64,000 nucleotides of DNA, from positions 2,119,181 through 2,183,180 of the forward strand of contig OZ242335.1 of NCBI GenBank assembly GCA_965208425.1, given 5' to 3'. The notes beneath the pieces were generated by a model. That model saw only the letters and a list, made by a program, of their open reading frames with translations. It was not told the DNA's origin and ran no database searches. The translations under genes and the position numbers were made by a program. This DNA is from Candidatus Poribacteria bacterium. GTDB lineage: Bacteria; Poribacteria; WGA-4E; PCPOR2b. Numbering within the stretch: the first letter of the stretch is position 1; each line of letters opens with the position of its first letter. Shown piece by piece: positions 7,554 through 35,767 of this stretch.

Positions 7554-8423
7554 ATGTCGAACACAATCAATCCACCGCAGATCCGACACATGGCAACGCT
7601 CTGGACCCTAACAGACTATGGCGATGCTGATGGAGAATGGTCTATGGATCGGAAACTACGGGAGATAAAAAATGCCGGATTCGACGGCTTTCTTGGTCGA
7701 GTGCCGGTCGTCACCGCCGAGCATGTCCAAGGGTATGGACTGCTGTTTGCAGCGACTGTAGATATAGGGGAGGCAGCGGAGGTCGAGCCAAAACTTAAGG
7801 AAATCAAAGAGGTGGGCGCGGTCTGTGTCAACGTGCAGATGCTCGACCACGACACTTCAACTGAAGAAGCGCTAACGCGGGCACGTCAAGTGATGGACAC
7901 CGCAGGCAAGCTGGAAATGGATGTCGCCATTGAGGTCCACCGCGACACCTGCACCGAAACGCCGGAGAAGGCTTATGCCCTCGCAGAAGGCTTTGAGCAG
8001 GCGGAGGGACGACCGCTAAAGATGACGTGGGATTTCTCACACCCCGCTATTATCAAGCACCTATCGCCACCGTACTGGGATCGATTGGCAGAACGGGTTG
8101 ACCTGATCCAACTCGCCCAGCAGTTCCATTTCCGTCCGTTCAACGGTCACCATTGTCAAATCCCCGCACTCGGTCACGATGGTGAGTTCACGCCGGAGTT
8201 CTTGGACTGGCTTGAATTCGCGGATCGGCTCATCGAAGTCTGGCTGCAAGCGGCGCCACCGGGGCGCGAGATGTTTGTCTGCCCAGAGCAGGGCGCGATG
8301 GGCTATACCCTATCAGTCTTTCCAGATCGATGGAAGGATGTGCAAGCCATTCGAGGCGAGGTAGAGCGGGTTTGGCAAAAGCATATCAAGAACTGGACAC
8401 CACCACAATCGAATGAAACGTGA
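7554..8423 (+). CDS. sugar phosphate isomerase/epimerase (xylose-isomerase-like TIM-barrel family)
   Basis: A 289-aa ORF with a GGAGGT RBS. The composition and the length are typical of AP-endonuclease-2/xylose-isomerase-like TIM barrels. A TTGACA-type promoter-like sequence lies at 7389. Confidence 0.6.
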   Translation: MSNTINPPQIRHMATLWTLTDYGDADGEWSMDRKLREIKNAGFDGFLGRVPVVTAEHVQGYGLLFAATVDIGEAAEVEPKLKEIKEVGAVCVNVQMLDHDTSTEEALTRARQVMDTAGKLEMDVAIEVHRDTCTETPEKAYALAEGFEQAEGRPLKMTWDFSHPAIIKHLSPPYWDRLAERVDLIQLAQQFHFRPFNGHHCQIPALGHDGEFTPEFLDWLEFADRLIEVWLQAAPPGREMFVCPEQGAMGYTLSVFPDRWKDVQAIRGEVERVWQKHIKNWTPPQSNET

Positions 8424-9455
8424 TTCGTAAAACGTGAAAACAATGAGTTCATGGGTTCATTTAGCCCCAGAGGGGCGACATGTCTATAGTACACAGGTAA
8501 ACAAATACCCTAAAGCCCCAGAGGGACGACATGTATATCCCAAGGGTGGAACATAAGAAGACTGAATTAACCAACCGACTAATGAACCGATGAACTCCCC
8601 GATAAATCGGGATCCGAAGTGGCTTGACCGATCCATACCCAGCAGGATGATATATATAAAAAAATACAATGGTTGGTAGGGAACAACGATCGTTGTTCCC
8701 TACGAGTTGGAACGTAGAAGTGCGTATATTTCGTAGGGAACGGTGATCTCCGTTCCATTTGTTAAATGTCAACAGAACCTAGTACTCTGTCAGGCAAATT
8801 ATGCTTGTGTATATGGATTGGAAGCAAACAATAACATATTAGGACTTACGCACTTCAGTAGTGAACAACGATCGTTGTTCACTATGGGCTTTTCTATGGA
8901 GTCTCTGTTGTAGTTGCCCGATTTATCGGGCGTTGTTGGGCGTTGGTGCGGCGATAAATCGCCGAACTACAGGATTTTGAGCGTTCAACTGCGTAAGTCC
9001 TGATATATAATAGCTGCAAAACTTATATGACTGAGTACTAGTGCTCAGTCAGATAAGTTTTACAATTATAGGACTTACGCATTCCAGATTGTAGTTGCCC
9101 GATTCATCGGGCGTATCGGGGCAGGTCCCGATTTATCGGGATCCTCGCTTCGCGGGAGATGCCCCTCCCACACACCGCTCAGTGCCCGCTAAAGGGGGCG
9201 AAAGGGCTTTGACCGTTCGGCTGGGCAAGTCCTGATATGTTATTGTTTGCTTTCAATCAATATACACAAGCATAATTTGCCTGACAGGGTACTAGTTGAT
9301 AAACCAAACGCTAGAAAGCAATCTATTAGGCGGGAATTAGAATTCCCTCTTACACTACGCAAAGTATACGGGGTGAGGCGTACCCTTCCGAATCATGACT
9401 TGCTTCGCTCCAATTGTACAAACTTTAGTAAAAAACTCAAAGGAGATTTTCTTTA
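8424..9455. repeat. 1-kb non-coding repeat nest (MITE/REP graveyard)
   Basis: It contains CCCCAGAGGGGCGACATGTCTATAG x2 with a conserved 23-bp spacer. It also holds GTAGGGAACAACGATCGTTGTTCCCTAC palindromes, a partial direct copy (8738-8850) and a full inverted copy (9020-9300) of the 1575-1925 element, and an 80-bp perfect-ish palindrome at 8990-9075. No ORF has protein-like composition. Confidence 0.85.
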
Positions 9456-12128
9456 ATGCAAATTCAGATTAAACCCAGTTTTCTGTTTTTCGTGTTTACG
9501 TTGTTCGTGTGCCTCAATTCCTTTTTCCTAGGGAATAGTGCTGCCCAAGTTCAAGATGAACCCATTGGTATATCTGCCAACTATACTTTTGAAACGATTG
9601 ATGTTCCCGGCGTCGAGTTTTTGGCGATAACAGCCAGTAGCGACTTTGAGGATTACGCCGGCTACACACTGAGCCCTGATGGTGAAAAGGAAGTCGGCTT
9701 TACACTCATTGATGGCGTTTTTGAGACCTATGATTTCCCCGGCTCGCAGAAAACCCATTTCTACGCGCTTGGTAATAATGGGCTAGCTGCGGGTCACTAC
9801 CAGGATAGCGACGGTCTGTATCATGGCGTTATTGTGGAAGATGGCGAAATGCGGCAATACCATTTTCCGGGTGCGGTCCAAACGGAGATATACGGGTATA
9901 GCGATTCGACGGGGGCAATGACGGGTAATTTTATTGATACTTCTGGCATTCGTCGTGGATTCTCAGGAGATGAAATAATTGAGTATCCCGGGGCAACGGC
10001 AACTTATGCCACTTTTGTGAACGACGTAGGCAATGTCGTGGGTAGCTACATAGATGCTGAAGGTACATATCATGTATACGTGCGTGGTCCCGGGGGTAGT
10101 TTTGCAACTCTGGATATTCCAGCAGGATCGGATCCCGAATACTTTTTTCTGCAAGGTATTAATAACGCCCTGATTGCTGTCGGTCGAGCCAAAGCGGTGG
10201 GTGATGTCCCGCGCACCTATGCCGGCAATGCCATCGGTCTACAAGAATTGCAGTTTCCGGGCAGCGTCAGCACGGAAGGCTGGAATGTTAATCAGGATGG
10301 CTCTATCGTGGGACACTATGACTCTGCGGATGGACGTAGACACGGGTTTATCGCTAGACCGAAAGCGGGTACTCCACAAGCACGACCCGGTGTTGTGCAG
10401 CCTGCCCTCAACTATACCTTTGAGAGTATTGATGTTCCCGGTGTAGATTTTCTGGCGGTAACTGCGAGTAGCGACTTTGAGGATTACGCCGGCAACATGC
10501 GGAGTGCTGATAGTGAAAAAGATATCGGCTTTACACTCATTGACGGCGTTTTTGAGACGTATGATTTCCCTGACTCGCAGGGCACCTATTTCTATGCACT
10601 CGGCAATGATGGGACAGCTGCGGGTCACTACCAAGATAGCGATGGTCTTTACCACGGTGTTATCTTAGAAAATGGCGAACTGCGTCAATATGATTTTCTA
10701 GGTGCTGTCGAAACGTTCATATACGGGTATAGTGATGCGACGGGACGACTAACGGGTAGTTTTATAGATGCTGATGGTGTTCGCCGTGGTTTCTCAGGAG
10801 ATCTAATAATTGAATACCCTGGGGCATCGGCAACCTACGCCGATTTTGTGAACTGGTCAGGCAATATCGTGGGCAGCTACGTGGATGCTGAAGGTATGTA
10901 TCATGCATACACGCGTAGTCCGGTGGGCAGATTTCTATCTATGGACCTTCCAAACGCAACAAATCTGGAATACTTTTTTCTGCACGGTCTCAACAATGCA
11001 AGGGCTGTCGTTGGTCGCGCCAAAGCGGTGGGTGATGTCCCGCGCACCTATGTCGGCAACCCCCTCAATCTACAAGAATTGCGGGTACCGGGCAGCGTCA
11101 GCACGGAAGGGTGGAATATCAATCAGGACGGCTCCGTCGTCGGACACTATGACTCAGCAGGTGGGCGCAGACATGGCTTTATTGCCAGACTCACTTCCGA
11201 GGCGGTGAGCGATTATTTTGGCAACGTCTTCAACGTCACACTGGCTAAAGGTCTGAACATGATCTCTGTGCCGTTGTCACCACCAGCGCCGATGACTGCA
11301 AAATCGCTTGCGGGGCTGACAGGGGCAACCACCGTCATCACACTCGATACGGCAAACCAGCAGTTCGTCGGGTGGACACCAACCGCACCGGACGACGGTT
11401 TTCCAATTGAGGGTGGGAAAGGTTATATCGTCAATGTTCCGGAAACTCGCCAATTTGCCTTCGTCGGGTCAGAATGGACAAATCAGACGGAAACTGCAGC
11501 AGCACCTGCTATCTCCGTGGAGCCGGTCCAAGAAGCGTGGGCGTTCGTTGTAAGTGGTCACTTGGACGGCAAAGCAGCGTTTGATGGTTATCAAGTTATC
11601 GTCCGTAATCTGAGGACAAATCACACAATAACCACCTCGGTACGTGGTGATTACTTCGCCGCTGCGACCGCTGACTTGGCACGGCGGAGTGTTGTCGAAG
11701 TTGGAGATGTGCTTGAAGTCCGTGTTATCGGGCCGGGTGGAAATGTTGAATCACACACCCTCAATTACGAAGTAACCCCTGAAGACCTAGCGAACGCGGT
11801 TATGTCTATCAGGCTTGATAGTATCGGTCAACCGAAGCTGACGCAGTTGTTGCAGAACTTCCCCAATCCGTTTAACCCTGAAACTTGGATTCCATACCAG
11901 CTTGAAACAGCCGCAGATGTCACCCTCCACATTTACCACACAGCAGGTGATATCGTGCGGACGCTGGATCTCGGTTTCAAGGGACAAGGGTTCTATATGA
12001 CGCGCTCTAGGGCAGCGTACTGGGATGGGCGCAATAACTTGGGCGAGCAGGTTGCTTCTGGGGTTTACTTCTACAGCTTACATACCCCTGACTTTTCAGC
12101 GACTCGGAAGATGTTAATTTTGAAGTAG
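9456..12128 (+). CDS. secreted HAF-like-repeat protein with C-terminal NPFNPET (FlgD-Ig / T9SS-type) sorting-like domain, paralog 1 of 3
   Basis: An 890-aa ORF with an AAAGGAG RBS. The signal peptide is MQIQIKPSFLFFVFTLFVCLNSFFLGNSAAQ. Two ~290-aa tandem super-repeats are each made of ~45-aa units of the pattern FPG..T..YGIN..G.VVG.Y.D..G..HGFIA, which is HAF/DUF3466-like. A conserved ~300-aa C-terminal module ends ...LLQNFPNPFNPETWIPYQLETAADVTLHIY...VASGVYFYSL...RKMLILK. Confidence 0.85.
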   Translation: MQIQIKPSFLFFVFTLFVCLNSFFLGNSAAQVQDEPIGISANYTFETIDVPGVEFLAITASSDFEDYAGYTLSPDGEKEVGFTLIDGVFETYDFPGSQKTHFYALGNNGLAAGHYQDSDGLYHGVIVEDGEMRQYHFPGAVQTEIYGYSDSTGAMTGNFIDTSGIRRGFSGDEIIEYPGATATYATFVNDVGNVVGSYIDAEGTYHVYVRGPGGSFATLDIPAGSDPEYFFLQGINNALIAVGRAKAVGDVPRTYAGNAIGLQELQFPGSVSTEGWNVNQDGSIVGHYDSADGRRHGFIARPKAGTPQARPGVVQPALNYTFESIDVPGVDFLAVTASSDFEDYAGNMRSADSEKDIGFTLIDGVFETYDFPDSQGTYFYALGNDGTAAGHYQDSDGLYHGVILENGELRQYDFLGAVETFIYGYSDATGRLTGSFIDADGVRRGFSGDLIIEYPGASATYADFVNWSGNIVGSYVDAEGMYHAYTRSPVGRFLSMDLPNATNLEYFFLHGLNNARAVVGRAKAVGDVPRTYVGNPLNLQELRVPGSVSTEGWNINQDGSVVGHYDSAGGRRHGFIARLTSEAVSDYFGNVFNVTLAKGLNMISVPLSPPAPMTAKSLAGLTGATTVITLDTANQQFVGWTPTAPDDGFPIEGGKGYIVNVPETRQFAFVGSEWTNQTETAAAPAISVEPVQEAWAFVVSGHLDGKAAFDGYQVIVRNLRTNHTITTSVRGDYFAAATADLARRSVVEVGDVLEVRVIGPGGNVESHTLNYEVTPEDLANAVMSIRLDSIGQPKLTQLLQNFPNPFNPETWIPYQLETAADVTLHIYHTAGDIVRTLDLGFKGQGFYMTRSRAAYWDGRNNLGEQVASGVYFYSLHTPDFSATRKMLILK

Positions 12129-12706
12129 CCCCGTAGGTTGGGTAGAGCGTTAGCGAAACCCAACATAATCAACTTTCGCTCTCTGGTAGGTGCGGTTTCC
12201 AACCGCACCGCATTCAATCCAATCCGGTAGGTGCGGTTTCCAACCGCACTGCATCAGCACAGAAAGTTCATGTAGGTCGAGATTCACATCTCGACAAAAT
12301 CTCTTGGAAAATTGACCTATAGGAGGGCTAAATGTAGGGGCAGGTTTCTTAATCCCGCCTGTCCCGATTTATCGGGGATCTATCGGGGTCTTGTGCCTGC
12401 CCAAAAAGATGAGCGCGGAGTAGCCCCGTAGGTTGGGCAGAGCGTTAGCGAAACCCAACATAATCAACTTTTGCCCTCTGGTAGGTGCGGTTTCATGAAG
12501 TTTAATTTATTAATTCGGTAATCCCGATTTTCCTCGAAACATAGGGTAGGCGCGGTTTTCAACCGCGCTGGCGTCGATAGCAAATTACCGAAGTATTTTT
12601 TTATCTTCATCCAACCGCACCGGTTTCAAATGTCTCATTAATTCTAAAATCTACCGTAAATTATAGAAATGGGCAACATCAGTCCACCGAAAAGGAGCTT
12701 TTCTTT
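12129..12706. repeat. BIME-like cluster of GTAGG-prefixed REP hairpins between paralogs 1 and 2
   Basis: It contains CCCCGTAGGTTGGGTAGAGCGTTAGCGAAACCCAAC x2 (12127, 12418), GTAGGTGCGGTTTCCAACCGCACC x3, GTAGGTCGAGATTCACATCTCGAC, GTAGGGGCAGGTTTCTTAATCCCGCCTGTCCCGATTTATCGGGG, and then the R-box at 12634. Confidence 0.85.
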
Positions 12707-15411
12707 ATGCACAGTCAGGCCAAACCCAATTTTCTGTTTTACATCTTTACGTTGTTCGTATGCCTCAATTCCTTTTTCTTAAGTAACACCGATGCACAAA
12801 CCGATAATGACTCAACTCCCCCACCGCCTGAATTCAGCTACACTTATGAGAGTATTGATGTCCCCGGCGTAAATTTTTTAGCGTTGACAGCGAGTTCTGA
12901 CTTTGAGGATTACGCGGGTTACACGCGTAGTGCTGATGGTGAAAAGGAAGTCGCCTTTACACTCATTGATGGGGTTTTTACGACCTATGATTTCCCCGGC
13001 TCGCAGAAAACTCGTTTCTATGCGCTTGGTAATGATGGGACAGCTGCGGGCCACTACCAAGATAGCGATGGTCTTTACCATGGTGTCGTCTTGAAAAATG
13101 GCGAATTGCGCCAGTACGATTTTGAGGGTGCAGTCCAAACGGAGATATATGGTTTCAGTGATGCAACGGGCGTTCTGACGGGTAATTTTATAGATGCTTC
13201 TGGCGTTCGCCGTGGATTCTCAGGGGACACAATCGTTGAAGCGCCTGATGCAACAGCAACATACGCCGATTTTGTGAACGCGAGTGGCGCTATCACAGGA
13301 AGTTACGTAGGTGCTGACGGTCTATATTATCCATACGTGCGCACCCTGAATGGCACATTTGTAATTCACGACTATCTGGATTCATCAACTCTGGAATACT
13401 TTTTTGTGCACGGTCTCACTGATACAAGGATTATCGTTGCACGAGCTAAAGCGATAGGTGATATTCCACGTTCCTATGTCGGCACATCCCAGCAAGGATT
13501 ATCTGAATTACAGTTTCCGGGCAGTGTTAGCACAGAGGGTTGGAATATTAATCAAGATGGGTCTGCCGTCGGGTATTACGACTCTGCGGATGGACGTAGA
13601 CACGGATTTATCGCCAGACCCACTGCGGAAACTGCTGAAAAATTCAGAGATATAGCTTATCCCCCCCCACCTGAATTCAATTATACTTATCAGAGCATTG
13701 ATGTTCCGGGAATAGATTTTCTGGCGTTGACGGCGAGCAGCGACTTTGGGGGGTATGCAGGCTACGCGCGAAGTCCTGATGGTGAAAAGGAAGTTGCGTT
13801 TACACTCATTGACGGTGTGTTTACAACGTATGATTTTCCCGGCTCACAGGGTACCTATTTCTATGCACTCGGCAATAATGGGTTAGCTGCAGGGCACTAC
13901 CAAGATAGCGATGGCCTTTACCATGGTGTCGTCTTGGAAAATGGTGAACTGCGCCAATACGATTTTGAGGGTGCGGTCCAAACGGAGATATATGGTTTCA
14001 GCGATGCAACGGGTGTTCTGACGGGTAATTTTATAGATGCTTCTGGTGTTCGTCGTGGATTTTCAGGGGACACAATCGTTGAAGCGCCTGATGCAACAGC
14101 AACATACGCCGATTTTGTGAACTCACAAGGTCTTGTCGTAGGCAGCTACATGGATGCTGATGGTTTATTTCATGCCTACGCGCGCACCTTGAGTGGTCGG
14201 TTTATACTTCTTGACTATCTTGACCCGCTAACTCTGGAATACTTTTTTTTACACGGTATTAACGACGGGGGGGAAGGGGTGTATTTGTGATTGCCCGATC
14301 CAAATTTGTGGATGATATTCCACGCTCCTATGTCGGCTCATATCTGTACGGGCTACACGAATTGTGGTTTCCGGGTAGCGTGAGCACAGAGGGTTGGAAT
14401 ATCAATCAGGACGGCTCCGTCGTCGGACACTATGACTCAGCAGATGGGCGCAGACACGGGTTTATTGCCAGACTCGGCACTAAATCAGAGAGCGATTATT
14501 TTAGTAACGCCTTCAATATCACGCTCGATAAAGGTTTGAACATGATTTCTGTGCCGTTGTCACCACCAACACCGATGACTGCGAAGTCACTTGCCGCGCT
14601 GACAGGGGCGACCACCGTCATCACACTCGATACGGCAAACCAGCAGTTCGTCGGGTGGACGCCAAGTGCACCGGACGACGGGTTTCCTATTGAAGGTGGG
14701 AAAGGTTATATCGTCAATGTTCCGGAAACTCGCGAATTTGCCTTCGTCGGGTCAGAATGGACAAATCAGACGGAAACTGCAGCAGCACCTGCTATCTCCG
14801 TGGAGCCGGTCCAAGAAGCGTGGGCGTTCGTTGTAAGTGGTCACTTGGACGGCAAAGCAGCGTTTGACGATTACCAAGTAATCGTCCGTAACCTCAGAAC
14901 AGACAGGGTGATAACTGCTTCGGTGCAAGGTGATTACTTCGCCGCGGCAACCGCCGACTTGGCGCGCCGGAGCGTTGTCGAAGTTGGAGATGTCATTGAA
15001 GTCCGTGTTATTGGGCCGGGTGGAAATGTTGAATCACACACGCTCAACTTTGAAGTAACCCCTGAGGACCTAGCGAACGCGGTTATGTCTATCAGGCTTG
15101 ACAGTATCGGTCAACCGAAACTGACGCAGCTGTTGCAGAACTTCCCCAATCCGTTCAACCCGGAGACATGGATTCCATACCAGCTTGAAACAGCCGCAGA
15201 TGTCACCCTCCAGATTTATGATACGTCTGGCGATCTGGTGCGGACATTAGATCTCGGTTTCAAGGGACAAGGGTTCTATATGACACGCTCTAGGGCAGCG
15301 TACTGGGATGGGCGTAACAATTTGGGCGAGCAGGTTGCCTCTGGGATTTACTTCTACAGTTTGCATACCCCTGACTTTTCAGCGACTCGGAAGATGTTAA
15401 TTTTGAAGTAG
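12707..15411 (+). pseudogene. secreted HAF-like-repeat protein paralog 2, reading frame broken at a G7 homopolymer (about 14265-14290). The ORF track splits it into 12707-14290 and 14287-15411.
   Basis: The N-terminal part (527 aa, MHSQAKPNFLFYIFTLFVCLNSFFL...) stops at HGINDGGEGVYL*. The downstream frame continues IARSKFVDDIPRSYVGS..., homologous to the IVARAKAIGDIPRSY segment of the intact repeats. The C-terminal module is more than 90% identical to those of paralogs 1 and 3. Confidence 0.75.
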
Positions 15412-15709
15412 CCCCGTAGGTTGGGTAGAGCGTTAGCGAAACCCAACATAATCAACTATGGTGGATTCTAAAAACAGATAGACACTTTCGTCCTTTGGTA
15501 GGTGCGGTTTCCAACCGCACCGCATCGGCACAGTTAGAAACAGTGCCTACCAAACCGGAGAACGGTAGGTGCGGTTTCCTAACCGCACCCGTGCCGACTC
15601 GTCGAGCATCCTTGATAAATCGGGATTTGAAGTGTCTCATTAATTCTAAGATTCACTATAAATTATAGGAATGGACAACATTAGTCCACCGAAAGGGAGT
15701 TTTTTCTTT

Positions 15710-18382
15710 ATGCACAATCAGACCAAACCCAATTTTCTGTTTTTCGTGTTTATGTTGTTCGTATGCCTCAATTCCTTTTTCCTAGGGAATAGTGCTGCCC
15801 AAGTTCAAGATGAACCCGTTGGTATATCTGCCAACTATACTTTTGAAACGATCGACGTTCCGGGCGTAGATTTTTTAGCGTTGACGGCAAGTTCCGATTT
15901 TGAGGATTATGCCGGTTACACGAAAAGTGCTGATGGTGAAAAAAATGTCGGTTTTACACTGATTGATGGCATTTTTATAACCTACGATTTCCCTGGTGCC
16001 CAAAACACGTATTTCTACGCGCTTGGTAATGATGGGCGCGCTGCGGGCTACTACGAAGATAGCGAGGGTTTGCACCACGGTGTTATCTTGGAAGATGGTG
16101 AGATACGGCAATACGATTTCCCCGATGCTGTGCAAACAGAGATATACGGTATTAGTGACGCGACGGGAGTATTGACGGGTAATTGGATAGATGCTGCTGG
16201 TGTTCAGCGTGGATTTACAGGAGACACAATCCTTGAGTTCCCCGGGGCAACAGCAACATTCTCCGATTTCGTCAACTCCGCAGGCAATATGTTCGGCAGC
16301 TACATAGATGCTGACGGGCTATTTCAAGAATATGCATATTCCTCGGATGGCAGGTATATAGCTTTCGATCTCGCAAATGCAGAAAATCTCGAATTCTTTT
16401 ATGTGCATGGTTATAACGATACAAAGACAAGGGTTGCCCGAGGTAAAGTGTTCGGTGATGTCACACGCACTTATCTAGGTACATTTGTTGACGGTCTGCG
16501 GGAATTGAAGGTTCCGGGCAGCGTCAGCACAGAAGGTTATAATATCAATCAGGACGGTTCTGTTGTCGGGTTCTATGAGACACCCGATGGACGTAGACAC
16601 GGGTTTATTGCCAAACCCATTGAAGTCGTTGATAAACCCGTTTTCCAAATCAGTGGCTTCAACTATACTTATGAGAATATTGATGTACCGGGCGTAGATT
16701 TTCTGTCGTTGACAGCAAGTTCTGACTATGAAGATTACGCGGGCTACACGAAAAGTGCCGATGGCGAAAAAATGGTCGCCTTTACCCTTATTGATGGTGT
16801 TTTTAAGACCTACGATTTTCCCGGTTCACAGAATACCTATTTCTTTGCACTCGGTAATAATGGCGATGCTGCCGGCTACTACGAGGATAGCGAGGGGCAC
16901 CACCGCGGTATCGTCCTACAAAATGGCGAGTTACGCCAATACGATTTTCCGGGCTCCGTTGAAACAGAAATATACGGCATTTCTGATGCAACGGGGAACC
17001 TGACGGGTAATTGGACAGATGCTTCCGGCGTGCGTCGCGGATTCACAGCGGACATAATCGTTGAGTATCCGGGGGCATCGGAAACATTCGCCGATTTTAT
17101 CAATGCGTCAGGGGGTATGGTCGGCAGCTACGTAGATGCCGAGGGTACATATACACCATACCTACGCGCTGGAGATGGCAGGTTTGTATCTTTCGACCTT
17201 CCGACCGAAGAAACTTATGAATTCTTTTATGTGCACGGTCAAACCGATACGAAGATTTCCGTTGCTCGAGGCAAAGTCGTAGGTGATGTTCCCCGCACTT
17301 ATGTCGGTTCATTCCTTGGGGGGCTCCATGAATTGAAAGTTCCAGGCAGCGTTTCAACGGAAGGGTACAATATCAATCAGGACGTTTCTGTCGTTGGACA
17401 CTATGACTCCCCGGATGGACGCAGACACGGCTTTATCGCAAGACTCGTTGATAAAGCAGAGAGCGAGCATTTCGGCAATACTTATACCGTCACGCTGGAT
17501 AAAGGTCTGAACATGATCTCTGTGCCGTTGTCACCACCAGCGCCGATGACTGCAAAATCGCTTGCGGGGCTGACAGGAGCGACAACCGTCATCACACTCG
17601 ATACGGCAAACCAGCAATTTGTCGGGTGGACACCAACCTCACCGGACGACGGTTTTCCAATTGAAGGTGGAAAAGGCTATATCGTCAATGTTCCGGAAAC
17701 TCGCGAATTTGCCTTTGTCGGGTCAGAATGGACAAATCAGACGGAAACTGCAGCAGCACCCGGTATATCCGCGGATCCAGTCCAAGAAGCGTGGGCGTTC
17801 GTTGTGAGTGGTCACTTGGAGGGTAAACAAGCGTTTGACGGTTATCAAGTAATCGTCCGTAATCTGAGAACAAACGAGGTGATAACCACCGCAGTACGAG
17901 GCGATTACTTCGCCGCTGCAACCGCCGACTTGGCGCGGCGGAGCGTCGTCGAAGTTGGAGATGTCATTGAGGTCGATGTCATCGGTCCCGACAGAAATGT
18001 TGAATCACACACCCTCAATTATGAAGTGACCCCTGAAGACCTAGCGAATGCGGTTATGTCTATCAGGCTTGACAGTATCGGTCAACCGAAGCTGACTCAG
18101 TTGTTGCAGAACTTCCCCAATCCGTTCAACCCGGAGACATGGATTCCATATCAGCTTGAAACAGCCGCAGATGTCACCCTCCAGATTTATGATACGTCTG
18201 GCGATCTTGTGCGGACGTTGGATCTCGGTTTCAAGGGACAAGGGTTCTATATGACGCGCTCTCGGGCCGCGTACTGGGACGGACGCAACAACTTGGGTGA
18301 GCAGGTTGCCTCTGGAATTTACTTCTACAGTTTGCATACCCCCGACTTTTCGGCGACACGCAAGATGCTGATTTTGAAGTAG
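15710..18382 (+). CDS. secreted HAF-like-repeat protein with C-terminal NPFNPET sorting-like domain, paralog 3 of 3
   Basis: The ORF track starts at 15671. Homology to the paralog N-termini and the GAAAGGGAG RBS favour the ATG at 15710 (MHNQTKPNFLFFVFMLFVCLNSFFLGNSAAQ). The architecture matches paralog 1. The C-terminal 300 aa are almost identical to those of paralogs 1 and 2. Confidence 0.85.
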   Translation: MHNQTKPNFLFFVFMLFVCLNSFFLGNSAAQVQDEPVGISANYTFETIDVPGVDFLALTASSDFEDYAGYTKSADGEKNVGFTLIDGIFITYDFPGAQNTYFYALGNDGRAAGYYEDSEGLHHGVILEDGEIRQYDFPDAVQTEIYGISDATGVLTGNWIDAAGVQRGFTGDTILEFPGATATFSDFVNSAGNMFGSYIDADGLFQEYAYSSDGRYIAFDLANAENLEFFYVHGYNDTKTRVARGKVFGDVTRTYLGTFVDGLRELKVPGSVSTEGYNINQDGSVVGFYETPDGRRHGFIAKPIEVVDKPVFQISGFNYTYENIDVPGVDFLSLTASSDYEDYAGYTKSADGEKMVAFTLIDGVFKTYDFPGSQNTYFFALGNNGDAAGYYEDSEGHHRGIVLQNGELRQYDFPGSVETEIYGISDATGNLTGNWTDASGVRRGFTADIIVEYPGASETFADFINASGGMVGSYVDAEGTYTPYLRAGDGRFVSFDLPTEETYEFFYVHGQTDTKISVARGKVVGDVPRTYVGSFLGGLHELKVPGSVSTEGYNINQDVSVVGHYDSPDGRRHGFIARLVDKAESEHFGNTYTVTLDKGLNMISVPLSPPAPMTAKSLAGLTGATTVITLDTANQQFVGWTPTSPDDGFPIEGGKGYIVNVPETREFAFVGSEWTNQTETAAAPGISADPVQEAWAFVVSGHLEGKQAFDGYQVIVRNLRTNEVITTAVRGDYFAAATADLARRSVVEVGDVIEVDVIGPDRNVESHTLNYEVTPEDLANAVMSIRLDSIGQPKLTQLLQNFPNPFNPETWIPYQLETAADVTLQIYDTSGDLVRTLDLGFKGQGFYMTRSRAAYWDGRNNLGEQVASGIYFYSLHTPDFSATRKMLILK

Positions 18383-18456
18383 CTCCGTAGGTTGGGTAGA
18401 GCGTTAGCGAAACCCAACATGATGAGTTTAATGCGGAGTCAGGAAGGACTAAAAAA

Positions 18457-19293
18457 ATGCCTGTCTTAACGGCAGAAGATCGAAAGTTCTGGGAAGAAAA
18501 CGGCTATGTGGTCGTTCACAACGCCGTTCCAACCGAAAATCTCAAAGCTGCCGAGCGGGCGGTATGGGATTTTTTGGAGATGCAGCCCGACGAGCCTGCG
18601 AGCTGGTATCCCGACCCGCCTCGCTCCACCATCATGACGGAGATGTATCAGCATCAGGCACTATGGGACAACCGTCAGTATCCTCGTATTCATCAAGCGT
18701 TTGCGGAGATTTGGGATACTGAACAGTTGTGGGTGAGCATTGACCGCGCCAGCATGAACCCGCCAGAGCTACCGGATTGGAAATACCCCGGCAAACTTCA
18801 CTGGGATACTCAATTGGAACCGCCGATTGAGTTCTGGGTTCAGGGGGTGCTATACCTGACAGACACCGCAGCCGACCAAGGCGCGTTCACCTGTGTACCG
18901 GGCTTCCATCACCAACTGGAGGGTTGGCTCAAAGACTTGCCCCCGGAGACGAATCCGCGTGAGCAAGATCTGAACAGCCTCGGTGCTAAATCGATTCCTG
19001 GGAAAGCAGGTGATCTCATCATCTGGCACAGTGCCTTGCCCCACGGCAGCAGTTCCAACACAGCCATGGTCCCACGCGTGGTCCAGTACATCACCATGTT
19101 CCCATCGCAAAGATACGGTGAGGATGCCCGAAACCATCGCATCAAAGCGTGGCAAGATCGCCTAGCGGGACTGGTCATTGAGGTCACCGGTATAACCACG
19201 TGGGAACTCCGAAACGAGAAAGAGCATCAAATAGGTCAGACAGCAGAACTGTCTCCACTGGGGCGAAAATTGTTAGGACTGGATCAATGGTAG
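18457..19293 (+). CDS. phytanoyl-CoA dioxygenase (PhyH) family protein
   Basis: A 278-aa ORF with an AGGAAGGA RBS. The N-terminus reads LTAEDRKFWEENGYVVVHNAV, and a C-terminal WHSALPHGSSSN His motif is present. Confidence 0.8.
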   Translation: MPVLTAEDRKFWEENGYVVVHNAVPTENLKAAERAVWDFLEMQPDEPASWYPDPPRSTIMTEMYQHQALWDNRQYPRIHQAFAEIWDTEQLWVSIDRASMNPPELPDWKYPGKLHWDTQLEPPIEFWVQGVLYLTDTAADQGAFTCVPGFHHQLEGWLKDLPPETNPREQDLNSLGAKSIPGKAGDLIIWHSALPHGSSSNTAMVPRVVQYITMFPSQRYGEDARNHRIKAWQDRLAGLVIEVTGITTWELRNEKEHQIGQTAELSPLGRKLLGLDQW

Positions 19294-19577
19294 TAGGCAC
19301 GCTCTGTGTGCCGTAACCTGCCCCCATTTCCGTAGGTCGGGCATCCCCCGCGGGATCCTCCCGGACTTGTCCGGTGCTTCGTAGGGAACGCAGATCTGCG
19401 TTCCATTTTTTTTACGTATTACGAATTACGTATTATACTTCATTAACCCCAGTTGCTTTGAATCCCGATCCTATCGGGGCAGGGCGGTATGTTTATAGAA
19501 TACCAGCGATCTAAATCTTCTCAAGCCCCAGCGGGGCGACATGTGTGTAGAACGTCATCCAAAAAAGGAAACGACAA

Positions 19578-27979: not shown

Positions 27980-30148
27980 ATGAATCACAGAGTACATAAT
28001 CAGATCGTCAACTTTATTTGGGGGATTGCGGACGATGTGTTGAGAGACATCTACACACGTGGGAAATACCGAGACATTATTCTCCCGTTCACCGTTCTAA
28101 GAAGATTGGATGCCCTCTTAGAGCCCACAAAAGAAAAAGTGCGCGAAGTCAACCAATTCCTGATTGAGAACCAGATTGATGATAAATCTGCTCTAAAGGG
28201 GCAATCTGGCTATAAGTTTTATAATACCTCGAGGTTCACTTTCAAAATCTTGTTGAACGATCCAAACCACATCGGTTCAAACTTGAAAAATTATCTGGAC
28301 GGTTTCAGTGAAGATGTGCAGCAAATTATCAGCAAATTCAAACTCAAGAACCAACTCGAAACATTGGAAGATGCTGGTATCACCTTTGCCTTGATTTCAA
28401 AATTCGTTTCCAGAGACATCAATCTGAGTCCCGAAGAAGCAGTAAATAGCAAAGGTGAAATACTGCCTCCGTTAACCAACTTGGGAATGGGTTATGTCTT
28501 TGAGGAATTGATCCGAAGGTTCAGTGAGGAGAACAACGAGGAAGCCGGTGAACACTTTACCCCAAGAGAAATCATCAAACTGATGACTCATCTGCTATTC
28601 CTACCGGTGAAGGATAAACTCACAGAGGGCACAACATATCTGATTTATGACCCCGCCTGTGGGTCGGGCGGAATGCTTACAGAAGCGGAACTGTTTGCCA
28701 AGGAATTGACGCAGGAGCGAAATGAATTTTTCCTTTATGGACAAGAGGTCACCCCGGAAACCTACGCGACTTGCACGGCAGACATGCTAATCAAGGACAA
28801 AGATCCTGAAAACATCGCCCACGGTTCTACTCTCTCAGAAGACAGTTTCCCGCACCTGCGATTTGACTTCATGCTCTCCAATCCGCCCTATGGCAAAAGT
28901 TGGAAACTTGACTATGATGCGATTGTTGGTGACAAAAAGCAAATCAAAGACGATCGATTTCGCGTCGGTGTCCCCAGAGTCAGCGACGGACAACTCCTTT
29001 TTCTCTCCAATATGATCTCTAAAATGAAGCACGACACGGCACTCGGAAGTAGGATCGCTATTGTTCATAACGGATCTGCTATCTTTACGGGGGAGGCTGG
29101 AAGTGGCGAGAGTGAAATCCGTAAACAGATGATTGAAAATGATTGGTTGGAGTGTATTATTGAACTTCCCCAGAACATCTTTTACAACACCGGGATTTCA
29201 ACCTACATCTGGATTCTTTCCAATCGGAAGCCGAACCGCCGCCAAGGGAAAATACAACTTATTGATGCCTCCCAACTTTACCAGAAGCTCAACAAGAATT
29301 TAGGGCAGAAGAATTGTGAGTTAACGGACGAGCACATCGACAAAATTACGCAGCTCTATCTTAACTTTGCAGAAAGCGAGATCTCAAAGATTTTTGGGAA
29401 CGCAGAATTTGGCTATCAAAAAATCACCGTTGATCGACCATTACGGCTGTCCGCTAGATTCACCCCTGAGGCAGTCGAAACGCTCCGTTTTGCGAATGTC
29501 CTCCGGGCTGAAATGGAATGGGTTTATAAACGATTTGGCGATGCAGTTTATGAGGATTTAACACCCCATAAGCAACAGATTGAGGCGTATATCGCTTACA
29601 ACGAAATCAAGATCAGCCCCGCAAATAATAAGAAAAAGCTACTTGACCCGAAGTTTTGGAACACACAAAGAAAAGTCATGGAAGCAGCCGAAAAGTTGAT
29701 GGTGGAGTTGGGCGACTACGAATCTAATGACTTTAATAAATTCCGACATGCGGTTGATGATACCCTCAAAATGTTTGGGATTTCACTCAGTGCAATCGAA
29801 AAGAAAACAATTTTCAATGCCGTTAGTTGGAAGGACGAAAGTGCACAACCTGTCATCAAAAAATGGGACCGGGATGGCACGTTCCATTATGAGCCTGATC
29901 CAGACCTAAGAGATACAGAAAATGTTCCGTTGGTGCAAGAGATTGACGACTACTTCCAAACGGAAGTTCTGCCCTATGTACCTGATGCGTGGATCGATGA
30001 AGATAAAACTGTTAAAGGCTATGAGATTCCCTTTACCAAATACTTCTACCGGTATCAACCGTTGCCAAGTCTTGAGGAGATTACTGCTGACGTTCTTGTT
30101 CTTACACAGGAAACCGAGGGCATTTTACAGGATATCATCGAATCGTAG
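27980..30148 (+). CDS. hsdM: Type I restriction-modification system, DNA methyltransferase subunit M (long form, 722 aa)
   Basis: The RBS is AAGGAGAA. Motif I is IYDPACGSGGML and motif IV is MLSNPPYGKSW (NPPY, N6-adenine). An HsdM_N-like N-terminus is present, plus a ~200-aa C-terminal extension. Confidence 0.9.
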   Translation: MNHRVHNQIVNFIWGIADDVLRDIYTRGKYRDIILPFTVLRRLDALLEPTKEKVREVNQFLIENQIDDKSALKGQSGYKFYNTSRFTFKILLNDPNHIGSNLKNYLDGFSEDVQQIISKFKLKNQLETLEDAGITFALISKFVSRDINLSPEEAVNSKGEILPPLTNLGMGYVFEELIRRFSEENNEEAGEHFTPREIIKLMTHLLFLPVKDKLTEGTTYLIYDPACGSGGMLTEAELFAKELTQERNEFFLYGQEVTPETYATCTADMLIKDKDPENIAHGSTLSEDSFPHLRFDFMLSNPPYGKSWKLDYDAIVGDKKQIKDDRFRVGVPRVSDGQLLFLSNMISKMKHDTALGSRIAIVHNGSAIFTGEAGSGESEIRKQMIENDWLECIIELPQNIFYNTGISTYIWILSNRKPNRRQGKIQLIDASQLYQKLNKNLGQKNCELTDEHIDKITQLYLNFAESEISKIFGNAEFGYQKITVDRPLRLSARFTPEAVETLRFANVLRAEMEWVYKRFGDAVYEDLTPHKQQIEAYIAYNEIKISPANNKKKLLDPKFWNTQRKVMEAAEKLMVELGDYESNDFNKFRHAVDDTLKMFGISLSAIEKKTIFNAVSWKDESAQPVIKKWDRDGTFHYEPDPDLRDTENVPLVQEIDDYFQTEVLPYVPDAWIDEDKTVKGYEIPFTKYFYRYQPLPSLEEITADVLVLTQETEGILQDIIES

Positions 30149-30277
30149 GTCGAATTTCAAAATTCGACGATAATATTCATCAATATGTAGTTCTCTACGA
30201 ATTGTGCGAAATCTTACTCCTTGACAACCTAGGGAGTTTCAAATCAAGACAACATCTGGTAAGTATTTGCGTCATTC

Positions 30278-31621
30278 GTGATGAAGTACAACTGTCAACG
30301 AACGAAAAGCGAACTAATAAAAATGTACAAACGGTATAACAGTTATAAGGAATCCGGATTCGCGTGGCTGGGGGAGATTCCGAGTCATTGGGAAGCGTCC
30401 ACGATCAATGCTCTAACAAAGGTTGTAAGTCGAAAAAATAAACCGAGCGAGCCATTGCTTTCTGTTTACAGGGATTATGGAGTTATTCTGAAAAGTTCAA
30501 GAGATGATAATTATAATAAGCCCGGACAAGATTTAAGTGCCTACAAGTTTGTTAAGCCTACGAATCTAGTCCTAAACAAGATGAAAACGTGGCAAGGGTC
30601 GCTTGGTGTCTCGGAGCTTCAGGGAATTGTGAGCCCTGCATATATCACGTGTGAGTTAGACATCTCAAATGTATTTCCAAAGTATTTGCATTATCTACTG
30701 CGATGCCACAATTACATTTATGAGTATAACAGATTATCGTATGGCGTAAGAACTAACCAGTGGGACATGAGGTACGATGATTTTAAGAAAATACCTGTGT
30801 TTTTGCCATCGAAGCAAGAACAACATGCCATTGCCGCCTTTCTTGACCGCAAGATTACCGAAATCGACCGCTTCATTGCTAGTGAAGAGAAGCTCATTGC
30901 CCAGTTAAATGGGCAGAGAGCTGTCATTATCAACCATGCTGTTACAAAGGGACTTGACTCGGACGTGCAAATGAAAACGTCGAAGGTTAAGTGGATTGTG
31001 GAGATGCCAAAACACTGGACAATTACAAAATTGAAATATACTTCCAACATTCCTGTGACTTATGGTCTTAATATTGAGGCAGATAGATATACTACAGAAG
31101 GAATCAGATTGATTAGAATTACTGATATTGATGAAAAAGGTGGTCTCCGAAAAAGAGGGGTTTATCTGCCTGAAAACTGTGTTCCTCGAGAGCAGATGCT
31201 TAATGGTTATGATTTGCTTTTGTCTCGTAGTGGCGCAACGGTGGGAAAATCCTATTTGCACCTTGAAGCAGGGCAATACACTAGTGCAGGCTATCTGGTT
31301 AGATTTAACTTCGGTGATTATTACACGTCTAAGTTTATTTATTACGTAACACAATCACACTTTTATCGGAATTGGCTTGAGCAACAGATAATTATAGCGA
31401 CAATTCAGAATGTTAATGGCGAAAAGTATTCAAATTTTCAACTCCCTATTCCTTCGCATCAAGAACGGAAACATATTGTCAACTTCCTCAACTACAAAAC
31501 TAAACAGATCGACGAGTTTGTATCCAAAGAACGCCAAAAAATCGAGCTTATCAAACAATACCGCCAAGTCCTCATCTCTCAAGCGGTCACCGGAAAAATT
31601 GATGTGAGAGGGACAGTATGA
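30278..31621 (+). CDS. hsdS: Type I restriction-modification system specificity subunit S (two target-recognition domains)
   Basis: A 447-aa, AT-rich ORF of about 38% GC. A duplicated TRD architecture is separated by conserved coiled regions (...EKLIAQLNGQRAVII... and ...ELIKQYRQVLISQAVTGKIDV). The start is uncertain: 30278 or 30323. Confidence 0.85.
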   Translation: MMKYNCQRTKSELIKMYKRYNSYKESGFAWLGEIPSHWEASTINALTKVVSRKNKPSEPLLSVYRDYGVILKSSRDDNYNKPGQDLSAYKFVKPTNLVLNKMKTWQGSLGVSELQGIVSPAYITCELDISNVFPKYLHYLLRCHNYIYEYNRLSYGVRTNQWDMRYDDFKKIPVFLPSKQEQHAIAAFLDRKITEIDRFIASEEKLIAQLNGQRAVIINHAVTKGLDSDVQMKTSKVKWIVEMPKHWTITKLKYTSNIPVTYGLNIEADRYTTEGIRLIRITDIDEKGGLRKRGVYLPENCVPREQMLNGYDLLLSRSGATVGKSYLHLEAGQYTSAGYLVRFNFGDYYTSKFIYYVTQSHFYRNWLEQQIIIATIQNVNGEKYSNFQLPIPSHQERKHIVNFLNYKTKQIDEFVSKERQKIELIKQYRQVLISQAVTGKIDVRGTV

Positions 31622-31676
31622 TTAACCCTCCCTAGGTTGATTTTGACAACTCGGCCTACAAGTGTAAGGACAAAAA

Positions 31677-34658: not shown

Positions 34659-35078
34659 GAGACTGGTGGGGCCTATTTTATAGTGAATTCTAAAAATAAA
34701 TAGACGTCAAAAGTAGTAGGCACACGGCGTGTGCCCTAACTGTGTGCACAAGGTTGCTGACCTCGCTTGTTCATAGTGTCTAGTGAATTCTGAAATCTAC
34801 TATAAATTGCTGTGGAATAGGTACAGAACATTGGTTGAGTTTCTTCAAGATTTTCCAAGAACAAAAAGACGAAAAATCTATCAACGCTGAACTGAATAGA
34901 CTAAGGACTTTAGTAACTGGTATAGATAGGGAAACCGACCACCAAATAACTGACGCATTGGAAAAATCGTGTCGGGTATTGATGATCTGTTGTATCAAAG
35001 ACAAACATAGGATTTGGCGTTGTGAACTTAATCGCACTCCACACAGAACCCAACGTAGAATAACCTCAAAGAGAAAAA

Positions 35079-35515
35079 CTATGAGCACAGACAAGGAAAA
35101 ACTCCAAAAGTATGAAGAAGATACTGAACAAGAAATAAAGGACGAAATCAACGAACTAGACAACAGAAAAGCACTAACCGCTCAAATAACATGTACATCC
35201 CTGCTAATCATATCTTCGATGATGATAGGATACACAGCCAAACTTCCAACAACCACATGCCTAACAAAGCTAACATTCACAGCATTTACATCAACCATCA
35301 TACTAACCATAATCTCACTTATCATTAGCAAGATAAAGCTAGACAAAGACATCAAAAAATACATTACAAAGATAAAAGAAAGAGACTTTAAGCCCGAAGA
35401 AAAACCATACAATGAAGACGCATTATCAAGAACAGGAGAATACCTATCGGTATTATCAATAGTAACATTCCTAACCGGCATAATCACAGCAACAATAACA
35501 ATAATCTTAACATAA
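35079..35515 (+). CDS. hypothetical small membrane protein (low-complexity, A-skewed); coding strand uncertain
   Basis: MSTDKEKLQKYEEDTEQEIKDEINELDNRKALTAQITCTSLLIISSMMIGYTAKL... has 3-4 predicted TM helices. The 226-aa ORF-track extension begins with TTG at 34835. Overlapping minus-strand ORFs of similar length exist because of extreme strand compositional skew. Confidence 0.3.
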
Positions 35516-35530
35516 TCCCCAAAGAAAGGA

Positions 35531-35719
35531 TTGAGCATGAACACGAAAGAAAAGGATACACCACGAGACAAAGAAGACCCCATACGAGAGCATGGCATAC
35601 CATCCAGAACCCCCACCATACCAATAACAGAGCCACCAATACCAACAGATACTCCTGAAGAAGCACCAGAAACCCCACAGCCCGATAACCCACCACCTGA
35701 AGAACCAGAAAAGGAGTAG
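35531..35719 (+). CDS. hypothetical small acidic Pro/Glu/Thr-rich protein
   Basis: A 62-aa ORF with an AAAGGA RBS: MSMNTKEKDTPRDKEDPIREHGIPSRTPTIPITEPPIPTDTPEEAPETPQPDNPPPEEPEKE. It is low complexity and may not be coding. Confidence 0.25.
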   Translation: MSMNTKEKDTPRDKEDPIREHGIPSRTPTIPITEPPIPTDTPEEAPETPQPDNPPPEEPEKE

Positions 35720-35767
35720 CAAACACAATCTCAAGTCATAAACTTAGCAACGCCTAGGATTTAAACC

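What the first reader, a model, noticed from the sequence alone, without database searches (positions are those of the whole stretch)
11200..18382. Concerted evolution: 3' thirds of the three paralogs are >90-95% identical in DNA while 5' repeat regions are divergent
Long runs of exact nucleotide identity are visible across 11220-12128, 14500-15411 and 17460-18382. One example is ccaccgtcatcacactcgatacggcaaaccagcagttcgtcgggtgga. Another is ggaaactgcagcagcacctgctatctccgtggagccggtccaagaagcgtgggcgttcgttgtaagtggtcacttggacggcaaagcagcgtttga. Scattered mismatches form mosaic patches, for example LHIYHTAGDIV in copy 1 versus LQIYDTSGDLV in copies 2 and 3. This is the signature of ongoing gene conversion. 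It may homogenise an export or anchor module while the HAF-repeat heads diversify.
Basis: seen in the sequence. Interest (0 to 1): 0.6.

Follow-up and report, generated by a model that had tools for sequence, protein, structure and literature searches.

The report
Shared tails on three surface-protein genes
Three neighbouring genes for secreted beta-propeller proteins in a sponge-symbiont (Poribacteria) genome keep their last ~900 bases alike by copying between copies, while their front parts are three old, distinct types; this is a clear new example of a well-known process.

Summary
The 3' ~900 nt of the three tandem genes are 89-90% identical, not more than 90-95%. Local windows range from 74 to 100%. 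The heads are 70-75% identical. Identity jumps sharply at about 11234 / 14519 / 17490. Both quoted exact strings occur in g1 and g2 only.

- In 75 related Poribacteria loci, the three heads fall into three separate ortholog clades (bootstrap 1.0 each).
- The three tails group with one another (bootstrap 0.975), and with the neighbouring tail of the closest genome.
- Silent-site divergence in the tails is half that in the heads.
- Tails of head-orthologs are more diverged than their heads.
- Short tracts with alternating nearest neighbours are significant by permutation.

The same head/tail jump recurs in arrays of other genomes. Bulk homogenisation is not recent (tail dS 0.36-0.43); only short tracts are. 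The heads are conserved types under purifying selection, not diversifying.

Each protein has a signal peptide, two beta-propellers, two beta-sandwich domains and a T9SS-type C-terminal domain. This is a new member of a known kind, comparable to H. pylori babA/babB and homA/homB. Interest is moderate.

The parts
9456..12128 (+). g1: family gene (890 aa) with signal peptide, two HAF-type beta-propeller units and the tail
   Evidence: Its head is orthologous to L017_1, L060_1, L020_1 and L022_1, which sit at the syntenic locus.
12707..15411 (+). g2: family gene with the same architecture, interrupted by a frameshift
   Evidence: Its head is orthologous to L036_2, L031_1 and L025_2.
15671..18382 (+). 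g3: family gene (903 aa). Its product from the second Met is 100% identical to database protein P0049, which lies on a 6.8-Mb contig.
   Evidence: Its head is orthologous to L001_2, L002_3, L005_3 and L006_3. Predicted structure is two beta-propellers plus the tail.
11226..12128 (+). Tail of g1: two beta-sandwich domains plus a T9SS-type C-terminal domain. This is the homogenised module.
14509..15411 (+). Tail of g2 (homogenised module)
17480..18382 (+). Tail of g3 (homogenised module). It is of the g1/L001_1 type, unlike the tail of its positional ortholog L001_2 (76% nt).
11452..11584 (+). Recent g1/g2 conversion tract: a 133-nt exact match with 14735-14867. g3 differs here at 12 polymorphic sites.
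11246..11323 (+). g1/g3 tract: a 78-nt exact match with about 17500-17577
15181..15236 (+). g2/g3 tract in the C-terminal domain: a 56-nt exact match with about 18152-18207
9528..9596 (+). 5' g1/g3 tract (matching 15782-15850), covering the end of the signal peptide and the linker. It spans 34 consecutive polymorphic sites where g1 = g3. Orthologs of g3 carry a different sequence here.
12131..12166 (+). 36-nt element 3 nt after the stop codon of g1, identical after all three genes. It marks the 3' end of the shared module.
15414..15449 (+). The same 36-nt element after g2
18385..18420 (+). The same 36-nt element after g3
12426..12461 (+). Solo copy of the 36-nt element (1 mismatch) inside the g1-g2 spacer
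14267..14273 (+). G-run with a 1-nt deletion relative to four orthologs. This is the g2 frameshift.
13031..13288 (+). Tract in g2 unit A that is 91.5% identical to unit B (13874-14131), against about 75% elsewhere. This indicates conversion between units within the gene.

Best explanation
The three genes are tandem members of a large Poribacteria family of secreted or surface proteins. Each encodes a signal peptide, 1-4 HAF-type beta-propeller units (two here), two beta-sandwich domains and a T9SS-type C-terminal sorting domain.

The heads are three old, distinct types that are inherited as orthologs across species.

The last ~900 nt plus about 45 nt after the stop codon behave as one module. 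Non-reciprocal homologous recombination (gene conversion) between copies in the same genome repeatedly overwrites this module, so tails track the genome and not the head.

I infer a homology feedback. Tails keep many exact runs of 25 nt or more (9-10 per pair, up to 133 nt), which recombination needs. Heads have 0-3 such runs, so conversion keeps working on the tails and stops near the head/tail junction. Constraint from shared secretion or anchoring partners probably helps fix converted tails.

Shown here: the pattern, the boundary, the silent-site signal, the tree conflict and the mosaic tracts. Inferred: the RecA-type mechanism, the direction of transfer and the selective reason.
For: - **Boundary.** Identity changes sharply at about 11234 / 14519 / 17490.
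- **Silent sites.** Divergence in tails is half that in heads. dS is 0.36-0.43 against 0.77-1.06, and four-fold sites differ at 18-27% against 41-52%.
- **Tree conflict.** Heads form three ortholog clades (bootstrap 1.0 each). Tails of the three window genes are monophyletic at 0.975, or 0.91 on third positions.
- **Orthologs.** Ortholog pairs have more diverged tails than heads. For g3 versus L001_2, head dS is 0.18 and tail dS 0.87. For g3 versus L005_3, the values are 0.24 and 1.48. The tail is therefore not simply slow-evolving.
- **Direction for g3.** Its upstream spacer, head and downstream flank are colinear with L001_2 at the syntenic locus. Its tail and the post-stop element are of the neighbouring g1/L001_1 type.
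- **Mosaic tracts.** Tracts with alternating nearest neighbour are significant in permutations of polymorphic sites.
- **Family-wide.** The nearest tail lies in the same locus for 76 of 167 genes, but the nearest last head unit does so for only 3 of 167. The same identity jump at the junction appears in arrays L015, L043, L063, L005 and L053.
- **Genome effect.** Tail identity is raised within a genome (0.756-0.763 against 0.688), while head identity is not.
- **Exact runs.** Counts of exact runs are.
Against: - The tails are still about 10% diverged (dS about 0.4), so homogenisation is incomplete and mostly not recent.
- When the closest genome's neighbouring tail (L001_1) is included, window-only monophyly falls to bootstrap 0.74, or 0.46 on third positions. 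Part of the similarity may therefore predate the split from that lineage.
- Copy number at the syntenic locus differs (1-2 genes elsewhere, 3 here). No g2-type head is seen at this locus elsewhere, so duplication or insertion also shaped the array.
- NJ/JC trees and NG86 are simple methods.
- No population or read data were available.
Confidence: 0.8

Rival explanations
1. Recent tandem triplication followed by head replacement. One gene was copied three times not long ago, so the tails are alike by recent descent. The heads of two copies were then replaced by recombination with other family members or with DNA from other Poribacteria, using the conserved signal-peptide region and tail as anchors.
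For: - The window has three genes where syntenic loci have 1-2.
- g2-type heads are found only at non-syntenic loci elsewhere.
- Head DNA does move between genomes. g3 16790-17384 differs at 3 positions from L001_2, while flanking genes are 84-94% identical.
- The g2-g3 spacer is 98.8% identical to the L001 spacer.
Against: - g1-type and g3-type heads sit at this same locus in five and three genomes respectively, each with different tails. Heads therefore look vertically inherited and tails replaced.
- Inside the tails the nearest neighbour alternates in short significant tracts, which simple descent does not give.
- The pattern recurs in many genomes. Under this rival, each genome would need its own independent triplication and import of the same head types.
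Confidence: 0.13
2. No recombination. The tails are alike only because the secretion/anchor module is under stronger purifying selection than the heads.
For: Tail dN (0.036-0.043) is about five times lower than head dN (0.20-0.25), and tail dN/dS is about 0.1. Constraint does account for a good part of the raised nucleotide identity.
Against: - Silent sites also differ two-fold between heads and tails.
- Between head-orthologs the tails are more diverged than the heads, with dS up to 1.48.
- Head and tail trees conflict with bootstrap 1.0 against 0.975.
Confidence: 0.03
3. Assembly artefact. Repeat collapse or chimeric joining of reads from several strains produced the similar, mosaic 3' ends.
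For: This is a metagenome-assembled genome and no read data could be examined. The g2 frameshift lies in a homopolymer, a typical site of sequencing error.
Against: - The three tails differ at about 10% of positions, so they are not collapsed.
- The contig is 6.8 Mb.
- The same head/tail pattern is present in at least ten independent assemblies from different projects.
Confidence: 0.02

Closest known systems
Concerted evolution of the 3' segment of Helicobacter pylori outer-membrane adhesin paralogs (babA/babB, homA/homB)
   Same: The 3' segments of paralogs from one genome cluster together, while the other segments cluster by gene. This is attributed to intragenomic gene conversion and a constrained membrane or anchor part (PMC2795765, which cites Pride & Blaser 2002 and Santoyo & Romero 2005). 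The variable part is the exposed, ligand-binding part.
   Different: - The genes here are tandem, not dispersed.
- The protein fold differs: beta-propellers with a T9SS-type domain, not an autotransporter-like beta-barrel.
- The host is an uncultivated sponge symbiont.
- Conversion here is older and patchier (about 10% divergence).
- No experimental demonstration exists.
Domain rearrangement and allelic exchange in Porphyromonas gingivalis T9SS surface proteins (Kgp, RgpA, HagA and others)
   Same: T9SS cargo proteins are built from exchangeable modules. Recombination, both gene conversion and transfer between co-resident strains, generates combinations (PMC5266723). An analogous inter-genome tract was seen here in g3 unit B.
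   Different: That work concerns strains of one cultivated pathogen and adhesin domains. Here the shared module is the C-terminal stalk plus sorting domain, and a working T9SS in Poribacteria was not tested.
PorZ of the P. gingivalis type IX secretion system (PDB 5m11)
   Same: PorZ is the best fold match of the g3 model (Foldseek E = 5.8e-10). By my own knowledge of the PorZ structure, not tested here, it has two beta-propellers followed by a C-terminal beta-sandwich sorting domain, as in the g3 model.
   Different: Sequence similarity is limited to the C-terminal domain (NCBIfam PorZ 15.9 bits against a cut-off of 260). The TM-scores are low. The family has 1-4 propellers and tens of copies per genome, which does not suit a single machinery component.

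Membership tests
Concerted evolution by intragenomic gene conversion | In the converted segment, paralogs of one genome are closer to each other than to their orthologs in other genomes | tested here: met
   Window tails are 91-93% aa identical to each other, against 78-90% to the tails of head-orthologs. Monophyly has bootstrap 0.975. It falls to 0.74 when the closest genome's neighbouring tail L001_1 is added.
Concerted evolution by intragenomic gene conversion | Outside the converted segment the same genes group by ortholog | tested here: met
   There are three head clades, each with bootstrap 1.0, on all positions and on third positions alone.
Concerted evolution by intragenomic gene conversion | The similarity extends to silent sites, so it is not protein constraint alone | tested here: met
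   Four-fold sites differ at 18-27% in tails against 41-52% in heads. dS is 0.36-0.43 against 0.77-1.06.
Concerted evolution by intragenomic gene conversion | Mosaic tracts are longer than expected from the distribution of polymorphic sites | tested here: met
   In a permutation test on the tail alone, p = 0.0002, 0.0013 and 0.0025 for the three pairs. GENECONV and RDP themselves were not available.
Concerted evolution by intragenomic gene conversion | Conversion events observed directly, between strains, over time or in experiments | not testable with these tools
   No strain-level genomes of this species and no reads were available.
T9SS cargo with type A C-terminal sorting domain (TIGR04183 / PF18962) | C-terminal domain scores above the curated cut-off of the family model | tested here: inconclusive
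   - TIGR04183 scores 27.4 bits (g2) and 25.2 (g3), above the cut-off of 23, but 18.7 (g1), below it.
- PF18962 is below its cut-off of 27 in all three.
- The related PF13860 FlgD_ig scores 30-38 bits, above its cut-off of 27, in all three.
- The fold search hits PorU, PorZ and FlgD domains.
T9SS cargo with type A C-terminal sorting domain (TIGR04183 / PF18962) | N-terminal Sec signal peptide | not tested
   No signal-peptide predictor was run. The sequence shows a hydrophobic stretch, FLFFVFTLFVCLNSFFL, followed by AAQ. The model has a helix at residues 20-37.
T9SS cargo with type A C-terminal sorting domain (TIGR04183 / PF18962) | The genome encodes the T9SS machinery (SprA/Sov, PorK-N, PorU, PorV) | not tested
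   Only a 64-kb window and 20-kb loci were available. The ten flanking ORFs scanned gave only enzyme, helix-turn-helix or no Pfam matches. Papers naming both Poribacteria and T9SS were listed but not read.
HAF repeat proteins (TIGR02913) | Repeat model scores above its cut-off (22.65 bits) | tested here: inconclusive
   g1 scores 26.0 bits, above the cut-off. g3 scores 21.2 and the g2 fragments 17.1 and 16.6, all below it. The predicted fold of each ~270-aa unit is an all-beta propeller.
PorZ (NF052228) | Full-length match to the equivalog model | tested here: not met
   The score is 15.9 bits against a cut-off of 260, and the match covers the C-terminal domain only. The resemblance is one of overall fold.

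The most novel reading that the evidence does not exclude
The family may work as a two-way modular system. Under this reading:
- A genome-specific 'tail cassette' (stalk, sorting domain and the 36-nt post-stop element) is kept uniform within each genome, because it must fit that genome's secretion and anchoring machinery.
- Propeller heads, the ligand-binding parts, are a shared pool of old types whose segments are exchanged between co-resident Poribacteria lineages in the sponge.
- The conserved ends would serve as the recombination handles.
- This would be a standing combinatorial surface-protein repertoire in an obligate animal symbiont.
Probability: 0.25. Interest if true: 0.6.

Novelty: new member of a known kind. 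Interest (0 to 1): 0.4.

Why it matters
This is a clean, quantified case of segment-restricted concerted evolution in an uncultivated sponge-symbiont phylum.

It also shows that the pattern is general for a very large Poribacteria protein family. That family has 196 genes in 75 loci here and thousands of database hits. Tails follow the genome and heads follow the type.

Three practical points follow:
- Trees of these proteins must be built per module.
- The head types are stable markers of function, while the tails mark the genome.
- The junction and the post-stop element define the unit of exchange.

If the heads bind host or prey ligands, the family is a candidate for symbiont-host recognition. 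The process itself is well known from pathogens, so the conceptual advance is modest.

Tried and rejected
- **Other paralogs in the same genome.** I searched with the g1 tail to find other members on the 6.8-Mb contig. The list held only short proteins and only g2's second ORF (P0121) from that contig. Genome-wide homogenisation in this genome could therefore not be tested directly. Multi-locus genomes among the fetched loci were used instead.
- **Source record.** The look-up of encoding contigs for P0049 found nothing. The listing of cluster members gave no accession or name.
- **Post-stop element.**
  - The Rfam scan of 8400-19400 gave no credible family.
  - Its hairpin folds no better than shuffles, z = -0.62, so a terminator or RNA-motif reading was dropped.
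  - The terminator and promoter scans were at background level.
- **Gene relic in the spacer.** blastx of the spacers against family proteins showed no coding relic next to the solo element at 12426. The 'remnant of a deleted gene' idea is unsupported.
- **The LHIYHTAGDIV patch.** I considered it a conversion from another sampled tail and rejected that, because no sampled tail carries it.
- **PorZ membership.** Rejected on the NCBIfam score.
Full report
**What is there**

The region holds three tandem genes on the + strand.
- g1 is 9456-12128 (890 aa).
- g2 is 12707-15411. It is read as two ORFs because one G is missing from a G-run at 14267-14273 relative to four orthologs.
- g3 is 15671-18382 (903 aa).

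The products share one plan.
- A hydrophobic N-terminal leader comes first.
- Two units of about 270 aa follow, with weak HAF-repeat matches (TIGR02913; g1 is above the cut-off, the others below).
- A tail of about 300 aa ends the protein.

AlphaFold models gave the following.
- Each unit is an all-beta propeller.
- The tail is two beta-sandwich domains plus a C-terminal beta-sandwich. That last domain matches FlgD_ig (above the cut-off in all three) and the T9SS type A sorting domain (above the cut-off in g2 and g3).
- The best whole-model PDB hit is PorZ (5m11). This is a resemblance of overall fold, not membership.

Database names and the 75 fetched loci place the window in Candidatus Poribacteria, which are sponge symbionts. 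The gene lies on a 6.8-Mb contig. Flanking genes are ordinary enzymes.

**Checking the observation**

- Sliding identity is 55-85% over most of the first two thirds and 83-100% in most windows of the last third, with a dip to 74% at about 11585.
- The best breakpoints are 11234/17488, 14519/17490 and, for g1-g2, 11112/14395.
- Mean identity of the tails is 89-90%, not more than 90-95%.
- The two quoted exact strings exist only in g1 and g2.
- The quoted peptide difference is real. The g2/g3 form is the family consensus and the g1 form is private to g1.

**Constraint or recombination?**

Protein constraint is stronger in the tail (dN 0.04 against 0.20-0.25). Silent sites tell the same story, however.
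- NG86 dS is 0.36-0.43 in tails against 0.77-1.06 in heads.
- At four-fold sites of conserved codons, 18-27% differ in tails against 41-52% in heads (p = 7e-6 to 4e-4).
- Along the tail the pair that agrees changes in blocks. Runs of 12, 9 and 9 polymorphic sites are longer than in 10,000 permutations of the tail's own polymorphic sites (p = 0.0002-0.0025).
- Exact runs reach 133, 78 and 56 nt in tails. Tails have 9-10 runs of 25 nt or more per pair, against 0-3 in heads.

**The decisive comparison**

A scan of one genome per species gave 75 Poribacteria loci and 196 family genes. Six loci share the window's flanking genes. They carry only one or two family genes.
- A g1-type gene is present in L017, L020, L022 and L060.
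- A g3-type gene is present in L001 and L003.

Heads have clear orthologs elsewhere.
- g1 heads are 85-87% aa identical to their orthologs.
- g2 heads are 88-91% identical.
- g3 heads are about 93% identical.
- Within the window, heads are only 64-70% identical to each other.

Tails do the opposite.
- Each window tail's best matches are the other two window tails (91-93% aa).
- The tails attached to the head-orthologs are more diverged than those heads. For g3 versus L001_2, head dS is 0.18 and tail dS 0.87. For g3 versus L005_3, the values are 0.24 and 1.48.

NJ trees with bootstrap gave the following.
- The three head clades each have support 1.0.
- Monophyly of the window tails has support 0.975, or 0.91 on third positions only.
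- Adding the neighbouring tail of the closest genome (L001_1) lowers window-only monophyly to 0.74. A clade of the three window tails plus L001_1 has support 0.76.

So part of the homogenisation is about as old as the split from that lineage. This fits tail dS of about 0.4 against flank dS of 0.22-0.51.

**Direction and extent**

- g3 is the positional ortholog of L001_2. The upstream spacer, head and downstream flank are colinear.
- From about 17490 to 18423, g3 carries the g1/L001_1-type tail.
- That stretch includes a 36-nt element starting 3 nt after the stop codon. The element is identical after all three window genes. Elsewhere it follows only the nearest tail type: L001_1, L017_1 and L019_3.
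- The tail of g3 was therefore overwritten, and the unit of exchange runs from just after the last propeller to about 45 nt past the stop.
- A second, short g1-type tract sits at the 5' end of g3 (15782-15850, matching 9528-9596). There, g3's orthologs read differently.
- Conversion also acts between the two units of g2 (13031-13288 versus 13874-14131, 91.5% identical). It is stronger still in its ortholog L036_2, at 93-99%.

**Generality**

- Across all loci, the nearest tail lies in the same locus for 76 of 167 genes. The nearest last head unit does so for 3 of 167.
- Head-ortholog pairs average 88.6% identity in the head but 79.0% in the tail.
- The identity jump at the junction recurs in arrays of other genomes. 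In L015, for example, tails are 92-99% identical and heads 56-91%.
- Tail identity is raised within a genome even between loci (0.763 against 0.688), while head identity is not.
- A one-unit member with a divergent tail, found at the end of many arrays, stays orthologous between genomes (92-93%). It serves as an internal control.

**Mechanism**

- *Shown:* the pattern, the boundary, the silent-site signal, the tree conflict and the tracts.
- *Inferred:* RecA-type gene conversion between tandem copies, sustained by the long exact runs in tails and blocked by head divergence. Constraint from shared secretion or anchoring partners would favour uniform tails.

**Rivals**

- *Triplication with later head import.* This keeps some weight (0.13).
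  - In its favour, copy number differs between genomes and head DNA does move between them. g3 16790-17384 differs at 3 positions from L001_2, and the g2-g3 spacer is 98.8% identical to the L001 spacer.
  - Against it stand the positional conservation of head types and the alternating tracts.
- *Selection alone.* Contradicted.
- *Assembly artefact.* The copies differ by 10%, and the pattern is present in many independent assemblies.

**Comparison with what is known**

- This is the same kind of process as the concerted evolution of segment 3 of H. pylori babA/babB and homA/homB (PMC2795765).
- It also resembles the modular exchange in P. gingivalis T9SS surface proteins (PMC5266723).
- Two searches, each pairing one term with Poribacteria ('type IX secretion', 'gene conversion'), returned five papers. 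By title, none concerns this protein family or concerted evolution in Poribacteria, and none was read. A search for 'HAF repeat' found one unrelated paper.
- It is a new member of a known kind.

**Verdict**

- Interest is 0.4.

Noticed in passing
window 16790-17384 versus L001 (OZ242315.1) gene L001_2: About 595 nt of g3's second propeller differ at only 3 positions from the gene of another species-level genome. Unit A differs by about 10%, the tail by about 24%, and flanking genes by 6-16%. This looks like a recent transfer of a head segment between lineages.
   Followed up: partly
window 15412-15670 versus L001 9742-10000: The 259-nt g2-g3 spacer is 98.8% identical to the spacer in L001, although the coding DNA on both sides is 86-90% identical. 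It is either part of the same inter-genome exchange or a strongly conserved regulatory region.
   Followed up: partly
window 12131-12166, 15414-15449, 18385-18420; solo copy at 12426-12461: A 36-nt element, CCGTAGGTTGGGTAGAGCGTTAGCGAAACCCAACAT, is identical after all three stop codons. A fourth copy with 1 mismatch sits alone in the g1-g2 spacer, and a stray copy occurs at L060:6444. It has no Rfam match and folds no better than shuffles.
   Followed up: partly
window 14267-14273: g2 is broken by a 1-nt deletion in a G-run relative to four orthologs. The deposited annotation also calls the 374-aa fragment (P0121). dN/dS against orthologs is not raised (0.10), so the change is either very recent or a homopolymer sequencing error.
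   Followed up: partly
window 13031-13288 and 13874-14131; L036_2: The two propeller units of g2 share a 258-nt tract of 91.5% identity, against about 75% elsewhere. In the ortholog L036_2 the first ~360 nt of the two units are 93-99% identical. Conversion between units of one gene therefore recurs in this head type.
   Followed up: partly
loci L003_2, L004_2, L020_2, L006_5, L043_4, L063_4 and others; absent from the window: A one-propeller family member of about 610 aa with a clearly different tail (55-71% identity to g3's tail) closes many arrays. Sampled pairs are 92-93% identical between genomes. It seems exempt from tail homogenisation.
   Followed up: partly
syntenic loci L001, L003, L017, L020, L022, L060: The same chromosomal site holds 1, 2 or 3 family genes of different head types and unit numbers in different species. 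The array gains and loses genes quickly.
   Followed up: partly
window about 28000-36000: This stretch has lower G+C (0.41-0.44 against about 0.50) and strong positive AT skew (0.11-0.23). It holds large + strand ORFs (27980-30148, 30278-31621, 31677-34658). It may be a foreign or compositionally distinct gene cluster.
   Followed up: no
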